The translations under genes and the position numbers were made by a program. Positions 2,941-3,860 of a stretch of DNA of 8,879 nt are shown piece after piece (the first letter of the stretch is position 1; every line of letters starts with the position of its first letter). The stretch comes from a virus (Duplodnaviria > Heunggongvirae > Uroviricota > Caudoviricetes). Location of the stretch: positions 1 to 8,879 of IMG/VR virus record IMGVR_UViG_2663763232_000017; one strand, given 5' to 3'. The notes below the pieces were generated by a model. It was not told where the DNA came from. It did not search any database and was given only the letters and a program-made list of their open reading frames with translations.

Positions 2941-3002
2941 ACTATCTGGAATTTCCGGATGGTTCATTGTTTTGGCAGCAAACCACTTATTTGAGGTGAT
3001 AT

Positions 3003-3326
3003 ATGGAAGCATTAGTAGTAGAGCGAAGCGAGGATGGCTACTGGACGCACCCAGAATACGCCAACCTGTTTGGGGATAGAGAGGCAATTTCAGCTGATGA
3101 GTTCAGATCTTTCTGCAAGCAGCATGGCATTGAATCATCAATTGTTGAAATGGAAAACGACAACAATCAAACGGTAATTGACGCGTATTTTGAAGATGGG
3201 AATCCAAACATCAGTGGATGGGAGCCAAGCATGCCAGATGGAGAAGGATGGTTTGTCGGTTCGATTCACGATACAGAAGACGGTCCGATCTGCGTTTGGT
3301 TCAGGAATGTAGATAAGGCCGCATAG
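3003..3326 (+). CDS. Hypothetical strongly acidic protein (107 aa; about 23 Asp/Glu vs 5 Arg/Lys)
   Basis: Listed ORF with GAGGTG RBS. Composition counted from the translation. Sits where lambda carries ral/ea genes. Confidence 0.6.
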   Translation: MEALVVERSEDGYWTHPEYANLFGDREAISADEFRSFCKQHGIESSIVEMENDNNQTVIDAYFEDGNPNISGWEPSMPDGEGWFVGSIHDTEDGPICVWFRNVDKAA

Positions 3327-3341
3327 TCGGCCTTTATTTTT
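3315..3341 (+). terminator. Hairpin plus T-tract straddling the stop of the acidic gene (candidate intra-operon terminator/attenuator)
   Basis: AAGGCCG/CGGCCTT 7-bp stem with 6-nt loop, followed by TATTTTT. The stop codon TAG (3324..3326) lies in the loop. Confidence 0.45.
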
Positions 3342-3389
3342 GGCACTAACAACAGAATAAACACTGCACTGAATTATTTGAGGTGAGAT

Positions 3390-3860
3390 ATGACAAAATC
3401 ATGGAGCGTACCTTTTCCTGAATCAGAAACTGAACATGATGGAATGCCTGTTTTCTGGAGATTCCAAGCGACAGTTGAAGAAGATGGAATCAAAATATTC
3501 GCACTTCAATATATAGCTTTTCATCAGACAGAGCATTATGCATGGTTGGTTCCTGCGCATTGGATTGTTAATTTTAAACCAGCACCAAATCAGTGGTTAC
3601 AGGAATGGAAACAAAAGAGAAATAGATATGCAATTAAGAAAGTAGCAAAAAATGCAGAAAGATCTTTTGCATTCCCAACGAAGAAACTTGCCATTGAAAG
3701 TTTATTGCGCCGGAAGAAATACCATTTAATGAGAATCAAACAAGATTTGGCTGTTGTATCAACTCTTGTTGATGGGATGAAGAATATTGATACATCAACA
3801 CCAGATATTGAATATAACTTTGGACACAACCAAGAAACAGAAAATTGGGTATTTTATTAG
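3390..3860 (+). CDS. Hypothetical protein (156 aa), AT-rich gene with basic C-terminal half
   Basis: Listed ORF with GAGGTG RBS. Local GC is roughly 30-35% against about 50% in neighbours (hand count of a 60-nt sample gave 28%). No recognizable family. Confidence 0.6.
   Translation: MTKSWSVPFPESETEHDGMPVFWRFQATVEEDGIKIFALQYIAFHQTEHYAWLVPAHWIVNFKPAPNQWLQEWKQKRNRYAIKKVAKNAERSFAFPTKKLAIESLLRRKKYHLMRIKQDLAVVSTLVDGMKNIDTSTPDIEYNFGHNQETENWVFY

What the first reader, a model, noticed from the sequence alone, without database searches (positions are those of the whole stretch)
2987..3392. Repeated 19-nt translation-initiation junction (TTATTTGAGGTGA-N-ATATG) in front of two consecutive cargo genes
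2987..3005 (TTATTTGAGGTGATATATG) and 3374..3392 (TTATTTGAGGTGAGATATG) match at 18 of 19 positions, and the start of the 322-aa gene is similar (GGAGGATATATG). Conserved junction sequences between unrelated genes suggest cassette shuffling by recombination at short conserved linkers, or shared translational control.
Basis: seen in the sequence. Interest (0 to 1): 0.4.

Follow-up and report, generated by a model that had tools for sequence, protein, structure and literature searches.

The report
Conserved gene-swap linker in lambdoid prophage
The repeated 19-base junction is real: it is the core of a roughly 35-base linker (strong ribosome-binding site plus start codon) that lambda-like phages share in front of at least a dozen unrelated accessory genes, a clear example of the already known "boundary sequence" route to phage mosaicism.

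Summary
Confirmed. TTATTTGAGGTGA[T/G]ATATG occurs at 2987..3005 and 3374..3392 and nowhere else in the window, even allowing 3 mismatches (0.01 matches expected by chance).

The window is the immunity region and early-left (pL) operon of a lambdoid prophage. The 19-mer is the right-hand core of a conserved intergenic linker, TT.GGCAGCAAACCAC-TTATTTGAGGTGA-[G/T]AT-ATG (positions -32..+3). It ends at the start codon of whichever accessory gene fills the slot after N.

In 110 distinct contexts from viral contigs and phages, 12 upstream flanks combine with 12 unrelated downstream genes in 31 combinations, almost at random. Variable bases in the left part of the linker follow the upstream flank; those in the right part follow the downstream gene. 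BLAST homology to 933W, H-19B and BP-4795 starts exactly at 3374.

Copy 2 plus the 156-aa gene is a 504-nt insertion in the lambda ral-ea10 spacer. A single-linker arrangement, orf75-linker-gene156, also exists in E. coli genomes.

The most likely mechanism is short-homology recombination at the linker, which also gives each incoming gene a strong translation start. The junction before the 322-aa gene is a separate boundary sequence. The principle is known; this is a well-resolved new instance.

The parts
2350..2712 (+). N-type antiterminator gene, the first gene of the pL operon
   Evidence: Pfam N_peptide E = 8e-19; PHROG 271.
2716..2940 (+). orf75 (74-75 aa, unknown function), the upstream neighbour of linker copy 1 (flank class U0)
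   Evidence: PHROG 5305 E = 5e-38. The same gene sits before the linker in mEp213, phi367 and E. coli 730V1.
2937..2967 (+). 14-bp hairpin followed by TGTTTTGG, overlapping the orf75 stop. It is terminator-like and lies immediately 5' of the linker.
   Evidence: local fold z = -2.3.
2971..3005 (+). Full-length conserved linker, copy 1: TTTGGCAGCAAACCAC-TTATTTGAGGTGA-TAT-ATG
   Evidence: It matches the linker of 933W, H-19B, BP-4795, Huey and Dewey at 94-97% over 35 nt, while both flanks differ. The conservation island spans -32..+3. See alignment A1.
2987..3005 (+). 19-mer copy 1 (T allele). It has an A/U-rich stretch, the SD GAGGTGAT and the ATG of gene107.
   Evidence: SD:anti-SD energy -12.9 kcal/mol.
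3003..3326 (+). gene107 (107 aa, unknown function), one of the alternative cassettes at the linker (class MEALVVER)
   Evidence: PHROG 1372. No hit in Pfam, NCBIfam, PADLOC or PDB. It follows the linker in several IMG/VR and phage contexts.
3315..3344 (+). Intrinsic-terminator-like hairpin t1 (GGCCGCATAGTCGGCC plus TTTATTTTTGGC). It is itself a mosaic joint.
   Evidence: The same element follows ral in phi367 and lambda, and follows gene156 in CurroJimenez and Dewey.
3323..3371 (+). Spacer homologous to lambda 34087..34040, the sequence just downstream of ral
   Evidence: 92% identity over 49 nt.
3372..3869 (+). Inserted cassette: AA, then 19-mer copy 2, gene156 and a short tail. Lambda and mEp213 lack it as a 504-nt indel whose ends are ambiguous by the 6-nt GCACTG repeat (3366..3371 and 3870..3875). 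AATAA also precedes both repeats. GC content is 33-39%, against 44-52% in the neighbours.
3374..3392 (+). 19-mer copy 2 (G allele), the truncated linker with the SD GAGGTGA and the ATG of gene156
   Evidence: Homology to 321 phage records of the 933W/H-19B type starts exactly at 3374. SD energy -11.5 kcal/mol.
3390..3860 (+). gene156 (156 aa, unknown function; equals 933W L0079), the second commonest cassette at the linker
   Evidence: PHROG 1636 E = 5e-112. 31 of 110 linker contexts carry it. Annotated L0079 in 933W.
3870..3990 (+). Homolog of the lambda ral-ea10 spacer that encodes the Hfq-dependent sRNA LPR1/PreS and ends in terminator tL2a (hairpin 3963..3984 plus T-run). It forms the right border of the cassette slot.
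   Evidence: 97.5% identity to lambda 34045..33925. LPR1/PreS location and tL2a from bioRxiv 10.1101/2024.10.31.621285. Terminator scan.
3985..4007 (+). Junction 3, a separate boundary sequence: T-run, then GACGGAGGATAT, then ATGA
   Evidence: H-19B shares it up to 4007 and then continues with the unrelated gp17. In IMG/VR it precedes the gene322 family 57 times and the gp17-like gene 47 times.
4004..4972 (+). gene322, a coiled-coil protein of unknown function that some records annotate as 'TolA'
   Evidence: PHROG 1376 and 21365; annotations.

Best explanation
The 19-mer is the invariant core of a conserved intergenic linker in the early-left (pL) operon of lambdoid phages: TT.GGCAGCAAACCAC TTATTTGAGGTGA [G/T]AT ATG, about 35 nt. 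The linker does two things.

(1) It is a ready-made, strong translation-initiation region. It has an A/U-rich stretch and the Shine-Dalgarno sequence GAGGUGA(U), which pairs with 7-8 nt of the 16S rRNA 3' end. It ends exactly at the start codon of the first accessory gene after N or orf75.

(2) Many co-circulating lambdoid phages and prophages carry the same linker. It therefore offers a patch of homology of about the minimum length that phage single-strand-annealing recombinases need. This prophage encodes an Erf, and its relatives encode Red-beta or RecT. Crossovers inside the linker exchange whatever lies downstream, in register with the start codon. Unrelated accessory genes are thus reassorted as expression-ready cassettes.

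This prophage has two copies because two cassettes are stacked. gene107 sits at the full linker. gene156, with only the right-hand 19 nt of the linker, sits as a 504-nt insertion in the lambda-type spacer between terminator t1 and the PreS sRNA. The left joint of that insertion (3373/3374) shows no homology, so it was probably made by an illegitimate or microhomology event. The two direct 19-nt repeats could now act as a substrate for deleting gene107, and the arrangement such a deletion would give is found in nature.

Shown: the linker, its boundaries, the reassortment of its flanks, the insertion and the collapsed form. Inferred: that homologous recombination within the linker, rather than selection alone, made the exchanges, and which recombinase did it.
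For: Context: cI (S24 plus HTH), the N antiterminator, Erf and an SSB-like gene identify a lambdoid immunity/pL region.

Breakpoints: homology to 933W, H-19B, BP-4795, Huey, Dewey and CurroJimenez begins exactly at 3374. Their own linker also matches window 2971..3005.

IMG/VR scan: a search for the 16 specified bases returned 120 loci. 91 of the 125 usable hits also carry GCAGCAAACCAC immediately upstream, which the pattern did not require.

Reassortment: pooled with the phage and E. coli loci there are 110 distinct contexts, with 12 upstream classes, 12 downstream genes and 31 combinations. The four main upstream classes each occur with orf28-ral, gene156, the 83-aa gene and gene107. Conservation is 85-100% from -32 to +3 and falls to 35-60% outside.

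Polymorphism test: the left 12 nt associate with the upstream class (0 of 2000 permutations reached the observed value). The spacer allele associates with the downstream gene (p = 0.0005) but not with the upstream class (p = 0.15). Upstream and downstream classes are nearly independent (p = 0.06). This is what crossovers inside the linker would produce.

Other support: lambda has a diverged copy in front of orf28-ral. Lambda and mEp213 have window 3323..3371 contiguous with 3870..3990. The single-linker form orf75-linker-gene156 exists as one 313-nt match at 99% in E. coli 730V1, T28R and others, with a hybrid linker that has the copy-1 left flank and the G allele. The SD:anti-SD energies of -12.9 and -11.5 kcal/mol are among the strongest of 19 gene starts.

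Literature: the boundary-sequence model of Susskind & Botstein 1978 and Clark et al. 2001 is summarised in PMC3233612. About 30 bp is given as the minimum for Red-beta recombination in PMC3945230.
Against: No recombination event was observed, so the mechanism rests on population patterns. The sequences are phylogenetically related, and the permutation p-values ignore that. The search pattern fixed the 13-nt core and the ATG, so conservation of those positions is by construction. Only the flanking 16 nt and the spacer are free.

The left boundary of copy 2 has no homology to the extended linker (2 of 12 positions). The cassette is bracketed by only a 6-nt repeat. At least one step in building this locus was therefore not linker-guided homologous recombination.

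Several other mosaic joints in the same region lie at terminators rather than at the linker. The 19-nt copy 2 is shorter than the roughly 30 bp quoted for efficient Red-beta recombination.

34 of the 125 IMG/VR hits lack the extended linker. They look like unrelated strong ribosome-binding sites, so the core motif can also arise independently.
Confidence: 0.7

Rival explanations
1. Illegitimate recombination followed by selection (the Hendrix-type model). Joints form at random, and only those that preserve the resident strong translation start and an intact incoming ORF survive. On this view the linker is simply the fixed 5' end of a 'slot' and is not itself a recombination site.
For: Copy 2's left joint (3373/3374) has no homology to the extended linker, and the 504-nt cassette is flanked only by GCACTG. 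Other joints sit at terminators t1 and tL2a. Five of the 12 downstream genes begin ATG GAA, which may be a trace of joints made just inside a previous gene. PMC3233612 notes that many mosaic boundaries have no conserved sequence.
Against: The same linker of about 35 nt is joined to 12 different upstream flanks as well as 12 downstream genes, so it is not fixed to either side. Linker-internal polymorphisms split, the left ones following the upstream flank and the right ones the downstream gene. Upstream and downstream classes are close to independent. Under this model that would need very many independent precise illegitimate events.
Confidence: 0.17
2. Convergent or purifying selection on a translation signal only. 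The two copies resemble each other because both genes need the same very strong ribosome-binding site, with no shared history or role in exchange.
For: GAGGTGA(T) is a near-perfect anti-SD complement with good spacing and an A/U-rich leader. 34 of 125 IMG/VR matches to the core occur in unrelated contexts without the extended linker.
Against: 12-16 nt upstream of the SD region, with no known role in initiation, are also conserved in 91 of 125 hits. Flanks more than 97% identical switch exactly at the linker. Other strong SDs in the window (N, orf99, orf92) use quite different contexts.
Confidence: 0.04
3. A shared cis-regulatory RNA element. The conserved linker, especially GGCAGCAAACCAC, would be a binding site for a protein, sRNA or RNase that co-regulates translation or stability of whichever gene occupies the slot.
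For: The 5' half of the linker is conserved without an obvious role in initiation. The locus lies next to an Hfq-dependent sRNA.
Against: There is no Rfam match at E <= 1. The two junctions have no common predicted structure. Duplex energies between linker and PreS region (-16.4 and -13.8 kcal/mol) are no better than shuffled controls (-19.0 and -15.9 on average). Copy 2 lacks the 5' half yet still heads an intact gene that is conserved with this truncated linker in phi367, L032 and E. coli UTME-12.
Confidence: 0.07

Closest known systems
Conserved 'linker' or 'boundary' sequences of lambdoid phages (modular evolution model of Susskind & Botstein 1978; HK620 analysis of Clark et al. 2001, as summarised in PMC3233612)
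   Same: It is a short conserved sequence between genes. Different phages have non-homologous DNA on either side of it, it sits at a gene boundary in the early operon, and it is proposed as a target for homologous recombination that reassorts modules.
   Different: I could not read the original papers, so I cannot say whether this particular linker was described there. No paper in the library contains its sequence. In this window the linker occurs twice in tandem, one copy being truncated. The data add a quantitative reassortment table and a test of linker-internal polymorphisms.
Translation-initiation region of lambda orf28-ral (lambda 34381..34351)
   Same: It is an orthologous position and a recognisably homologous sequence (ACCGCAATCCACTATTTAAGGTGATATATG, 29 of 32 positions in BLAST). 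In many relatives the same orf28-ral cassette follows the consensus linker.
   Different: The lambda copy differs at 2 of the 19 core positions. It lies after the sieB region rather than directly after N or orf75.
Morons (Juhala et al. 2000: an extra gene with its own promoter and terminator, inserted between genes that are adjacent in related phages)
   Same: gene156 plus copy 2 is an insertion between sequences that are contiguous in lambda and mEp213. Its GC content is clearly lower than its neighbours'.
   Different: No promoter was detected upstream. The downstream terminator belongs to the resident PreS/tL2a unit, not to the insert. The gene appears to be expressed as part of the N-antiterminated pL transcript through the shared linker RBS.
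Relaxed or short-homology recombination by phage Rad52-like recombinases (Martinsohn et al. 2008, PMC2327257; De Paepe et al. 2014, PMC3945230)
   Same: It supplies a mechanism. The mosaics are recent (more than 95% identical) and bounded by short patches of homology, and the phages involved encode Erf, Red-beta or RecT.
   Different: Those studies measured exchange over longer diverged homologies. Here the patch is only about 19-35 nt, and no experiment was done.
Integron gene cassettes (attC/attI with the IntI integrase)
   Same: The outcome is similar: promoterless single-gene cassettes stacked in tandem behind a common expression signal, each preceded by a repeated junction.
   Different: The linker has no attC-like imperfect inverted repeat, and the window has no integron integrase. 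Exchange would be by general rather than site-specific recombination. This is an analogy, not membership.

Membership tests
Lambdoid boundary/linker sequence (modular-exchange model) | A short conserved sequence lying between genes, not inside them | tested here: met
   The linker at 2971..3005 begins 31 nt after the orf75 stop and ends with the gene107 ATG. In 933W it begins 27 nt after the N stop.
Lambdoid boundary/linker sequence (modular-exchange model) | Non-homologous sequences on both sides in different phages, with homology confined to the linker | tested here: met
   The conservation island spans -32..+3, and the flanks drop to 35-60% majority base. BLAST matches of 31-35 nt are limited to the linker. 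Linker-only matches of 33-38 nt at 97-100% occur in E. coli genomes.
Lambdoid boundary/linker sequence (modular-exchange model) | Combinatorial reassortment of upstream and downstream modules across the linker | tested here: met
   12 upstream classes and 12 downstream classes occur in 31 combinations. All four combinations are present for several pairs of classes. Upstream and downstream classes are nearly independent.
Lambdoid boundary/linker sequence (modular-exchange model) | Exchange actually occurs by homologous recombination within the linker | tested here: inconclusive
   Polymorphisms in the left and right parts of the linker segregate with their nearer flank, and a hybrid linker exists in E. 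coli 730V1. Both fit crossovers within the linker. No direct observation was made, and copy 2's left joint is non-homologous.
Shine-Dalgarno translation-initiation region | Complementarity to the 16S rRNA 3' end, 5-9 nt from a start codon that opens a real ORF | tested here: met
   GAGGTGAT and GAGGTGA give -12.9 and -11.5 kcal/mol against GAUCACCUCCUUA. The GAGG core lies 6 nt from the ATG. Both ORFs belong to conserved PHROG families. Translation itself was not measured.
Moron | An insertion between genes or sequences that are adjacent in relatives, with atypical composition | tested here: met
   Window 3371 and 3870 are contiguous in lambda and mEp213. GC content is 33-39%, against 44-52%.
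Moron | Its own promoter upstream and its own terminator downstream | tested here: not met
   There is no sigma-70-like site between 3326 and 3390. The downstream terminator is part of the resident PreS/tL2a unit, which lambda has without the insert. The consensus scan is crude.
Integron gene cassette | An attC recombination site (imperfect inverted repeats) and an IntI integrase | tested here: not met
   No inverted repeat involves the linker. No integrase lies adjacent, and the neighbouring genes are typical lambdoid pL genes.
Known structured RNA family (Rfam) | A match to a curated covariance model | tested here: not met
   No match at E <= 1 anywhere in the window.

The most novel reading that the evidence does not exclude
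The linker may be more than a passive patch of shared sequence. It could be a maintained, expression-ready 'docking site' that defines a dedicated accessory-gene slot right after N in Escherichia lambdoid phages. On this reading the 5' half (GGCAGCAAACCAC) is kept for recombination or regulation. Any gene recombined in at the ATG is at once translated from the N-antiterminated early transcript. The system would then work like an integron but run on the phage's own annealing recombinase, and tandem linkers as in this window would allow rapid gain and loss of cassettes.
Probability: 0.15. Interest if true: 0.6.

Novelty: new member of a known kind. Interest (0 to 1): 0.3.

Why it matters
It has long been argued whether phage mosaicism arises from recombination at short conserved linkers or from random illegitimate joints filtered by selection. 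This locus is a compact natural test case. It has one linker of about 35 nt, at least 12 alternative cassettes, and near-random association of the flanks. The same genome contains both a linker-type joint and a clearly non-homologous joint. A tandem-linker arrangement and its collapsed form both exist in nature. The slot lies in the early transcript directly after N, where lambda keeps ral and sieB. The dozen unknown genes that alternate here are therefore reasonable candidates for host-takeover, anti-restriction or exclusion functions. For annotation, recognising the linker helps to call the true start codons of these small genes.

Tried and rejected
- **Generic RBS context.** Rejected. No other site in the window matches within 3 mismatches, and the other 17 gene starts have different contexts.
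- **Gene duplication.** Rejected. The two proteins are unrelated.
- **Third copy before gene322.** Rejected. Only GAGG and GATATATG are shared. It is a separate boundary sequence with two alternative downstream genes.
- **Known RNA element.** Rfam at E <= 1 found nothing.
- **Shared RNA structure or pairing with the neighbouring PreS-like sRNA.** The two junctions fold differently, and duplex energies are no better than shuffles.
- **Own promoter for gene156.** None was found by the consensus scan.
- **Function of the cargo genes.** Pfam, NCBIfam, PADLOC and PDB sequence searches gave nothing significant, and PHROGs list 'unknown function'. Single-sequence AlphaFold models had pLDDT 40 (gene156) and 59 (gene107), too poor for a fold search, so none was run. 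The large homology searches were not spent on this, because cargo function does not decide the finding.
- **Literature search for the linker sequence.** No paper holds it. Clark et al. 2001 and Susskind & Botstein 1978 are not in the library. They are cited only through PMC3233612.
- **Origin of copy 2's left joint by homology with the extended linker.** Rejected, with only 2 of 12 positions matching. How that joint formed remains unexplained.
- **Species scan.** The 25-nt extended linker was found in only four species-representative genomes: E. coli, E. albertii, Phytobacter ursingii and one MAG labelled Segatella copri, which is probably mis-binned. The element is therefore narrowly distributed.
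Full report
**Observation.** The window reads TTATTTGAGGTGATATATG at 2987..3005 and TTATTTGAGGTGAGATATG at 3374..3392. Each ends in the ATG of an ORF: 3003..3326 (107 aa, 'gene107') and 3390..3860 (156 aa, 'gene156'). A search allowing 3 mismatches on both strands finds only these two sites. The expectation from 200 dinucleotide shuffles is 0.01 matches, and no shuffle gave two. Within the window the repeat is exactly 19 nt. The 12 nt before each copy agree at 2 of 12 positions, the sequences after the ATG differ, and the two proteins are unrelated.

**Context.** The + strand carries a cI-type repressor (S24 peptidase plus HTH) and then an N-type antiterminator at 2350..2712. 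After that come small ORFs, a coiled-coil 322-aa gene, cIII and kil-like ORFs (named from mEp213's annotation of the homologous stretch), an Erf recombinase and an SSB-like gene. This is the immunity region and early-left (pL) operon of a lambdoid prophage, read in the pL direction. Both junctions lie in the variable accessory stretch just downstream of N.

**Breakpoints in relatives.** Megablast of 2700..4100 against 50,697 phage records hit 329 records. None carries the whole arrangement. Pairwise BLAST against eight of them gave the following.
- 933W, H-19B, BP-4795, Huey, Dewey and CurroJimenez have gene156 directly behind N or another small ORF. Their homology to the window starts exactly at 3374.
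- The 35 nt before their ATG also match window 2971..3005 at 94-97%.
- mEp213 has orf75-linker-gene107 and then jumps from window 3371 to 3870, so it lacks copy 2 and gene156.
- phi367 has orf75 and the same linker, followed by a different ORF (MEEEFEEFEEH..., lambda orf28) and ral. It then has the t1 tail, copy 2 and gene156.

**Survey of the linker.**
Of 125 usable occurrences, 91 also have GCAGCAAACCAC (2 or fewer mismatches) immediately upstream, which the pattern did not require.
- The other 34 sit in unrelated contexts. They are best read as independent strong ribosome-binding sites or chance matches.
- After adding later loci and removing duplicates, there are 110 distinct contexts. They fall into 12 upstream-flank classes and 12 downstream genes, in 31 combinations.
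- The downstream genes are orf28-ral, gene156, an 83-aa gene, gene107, and genes of 149, 62, 87, 60, 118, 53, 52 and 103 aa.
- The four common upstream classes each occur with orf28, gene156, the 83-aa gene and gene107.
- With one representative per combination (27 representatives), the majority base is 85-100% from -32 to +3 and 35-60% outside.

**Polymorphisms inside the linker.**
- Variation in the left 12 nt is associated with the upstream class (0 of 2000 permutations reached the observed mutual information).
- The G/T spacer allele is associated with the downstream gene (p = 0.0005) but not with the upstream class (p = 0.15).
- Upstream and downstream classes are close to independent (p = 0.06).

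This is the pattern expected if crossovers fall inside the linker. The permutations ignore shared ancestry, so the result is suggestive rather than proof.

**Lambda as reference.** Lambda has a diverged copy of the linker (ACCGCAATCCACTATTTAAGGTGATATATG) in front of orf28-ral. In lambda, window 3323..3371 (92%) and 3870..3990 (97.5%) correspond to one continuous stretch, 34087..33925, between ral and ea10. mEp213 is the same. Copy 2 plus gene156 is therefore a 504-nt insertion in that spacer. It is bracketed by GCACTG (3366..3371 and 3870..3875) with AATAA just before each repeat, and its GC content is 33-39% against 44-52% in the neighbours. The left joint of the insertion, 3373/3374, cuts the linker precisely before TTATTTG and shows no homology. 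At least this step looks illegitimate or microhomology-mediated. The right-hand border region is the lambda locus of the Hfq-dependent sRNA LPR1/PreS, which ends at terminator tL2a (bioRxiv 10.1101/2024.10.31.621285).

**Frequency of the arrangements.** Among 5,426 complete E. coli genomes, 1,279 carry some part of 2930..3470, but only 12 carry the tandem arrangement. IMG/VR locus L032 also has it, there behind a 933W-type N flank. A synthetic query for the single-linker product (orf75-linker-gene156) matches as one 313-nt piece at 99% in E. coli 730V1, T28R, 2018-05-5CC and EC102. In 730V1 the linker is a hybrid, with copy 1's left flank and extension plus the G allele and gene156. This is the product expected from recombination between the two copies, or from an exchange with a 933W-type phage.

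**Function of the sequence.** GAGGTGAT and GAGGTGA pair with the 16S rRNA 3' end at -12.9 and -11.5 kcal/mol. These are among the strongest of 19 gene starts in the window. The GAGG core lies 6 nt from the ATG and follows an A/U-rich stretch. No other gene start shares the context. The linker is therefore a strong translation-initiation region that any incoming gene inherits. I found no evidence for a further regulatory role:
- Rfam gave no match.
- The two junctions have no common predicted fold.
- Complementarity to the adjacent PreS-like RNA is no better than in shuffled controls.

**Mechanism.** The best-supported reading is the classical 'boundary sequence' mechanism of lambdoid mosaicism. 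A short conserved intergenic linker serves as the homology patch for exchange, as proposed by Susskind & Botstein (1978) and supported for lambdoid phages by Clark et al. (2001), summarised in PMC3233612. Phage annealing recombinases tolerate short and diverged homology, and about 30 bp is quoted as the minimum for Red-beta (PMC2327257, PMC3945230). This prophage encodes Erf. The main rival is illegitimate recombination with selection. It certainly contributed, as shown by copy 2's left joint and the terminator joints. On its own it does not explain a 35-nt island joined almost at random to a dozen flanks on each side.

**The third junction.** It belongs to a separate conserved boundary, the tL2a T-run plus GACGGAGGATATATGA at 3985..4007. 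H-19B shares it up to 4007 before the unrelated gp17. In IMG/VR it precedes the gene322 family 57 times and the gp17-like gene 47 times. Terminator t1 is a further joint: it follows gene107, ral or gene156 in different phages.

**Cargo genes.** gene107 and gene156 have no significant match in Pfam, NCBIfam, PADLOC or PDB sequences, and their PHROGs are of unknown function. Single-sequence structure models were too poor to search with. Their function remains open. Their position, where lambda keeps ral and sieB, suggests early host-interaction roles. That is an inference only.

**Verdict.** The phenomenon belongs to a known kind. The library holds no paper with this linker's sequence, and I could not read Clark et al. 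2001, so I cannot say whether this linker has been described. It is a well-resolved new example rather than a new principle. Interest is modest (0.3). Its value is as a compact natural system for testing linker-guided against illegitimate exchange, and as a pointer to a set of alternative early genes of unknown function.

Noticed in passing
window 3870..3990: This non-coding stretch is 97.5% identical to lambda 34045..33925 and ends in a GC hairpin plus T-run (3963..3991). It corresponds to the lambda Hfq-dependent sRNA LPR1/PreS and terminator tL2a, described in bioRxiv 10.1101/2024.10.31.621285. The gene156 cassette is inserted just upstream of it and leaves it intact.
   Followed up: partly
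window 3985..4007: This is a second, distinct conserved boundary sequence (TTTTTTTGACGGAGGATATATGA). In IMG/VR contigs it precedes either the 322-aa coiled-coil gene family (57 cases) or an unrelated 103-aa P22-gp17-like gene (47 cases), nearly always behind the PreS/tL2a unit.
   Followed up: yes
window 3315..3344: Terminator-like hairpin t1 (GGCCGCATAGTCGGCC plus TTTATTTTTGGCA) is itself a mosaic joint. It follows gene107 here and in mEp213, ral in lambda and phi367, and gene156 in CurroJimenez and Dewey. Its tail TTTTTGGCA resembles the 5' end of the extended linker. In IMG/VR locus L020, t1 is fused directly to the linker.
   Followed up: partly
window 1..69: There are three tandem copies of a 24-nt unit (CCCTAGGGCAGCTCCTGCCCCACC; two identical and one at 88%). 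They lie inside a minus-strand ORF that starts near 363 and runs off the left end, downstream of cro and cII. This is probably the replication-initiator gene, and the repeats are probably origin iterons.
   Followed up: no
window 1202..1221 and 2084..2103: A 20-nt inverted repeat (90% complementary) flanks the cI gene. One arm lies in the cro/cI divergent promoter region and the other at the predicted pL promoter (TTGACT-17-TACTAT at 2074..2102). These are probably shared OR and OL operator sequences.
   Followed up: no
L002 (phage mEp213) 800..866 and 1..84 / 1237..1509: mEp213 carries a second, 100% identical 67-nt copy of window 3904..3970 (part of the PreS-like region). It also has two annotated N genes of different types in tandem, which suggests a duplicated or stacked pL-proximal segment.
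   Followed up: no
L131 (E. coli UTME-12) 1503..1536: This is a variant linker allele. It has the same left half (GGCAGCAAACCAC), but the right half is TGTATGAGAGGTGAGATATG instead of TTATTTGAGGTGA-ATATG, in front of the same gene107. A similar variant (GTATGAGGGGTGAGATATG) follows the first N gene of mEp213 (L002 72..90).
   Followed up: partly
window 2937..2967: A 14-bp hairpin overlaps the orf75 stop codon and is followed by TGTTTTGG, directly 5' of the linker. In several other upstream classes the linker is also preceded by a terminator-like hairpin and T-run. The linker may therefore have originated as 'terminator tail plus RBS'.
   Followed up: no
downstream genes at the linker (IMG/VR loci): Five of the 12 unrelated genes that follow the linker begin with ATG GAA (Met-Glu). 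This suggests that the homology, or the original joints, sometimes extended one codon into the gene.
   Followed up: no
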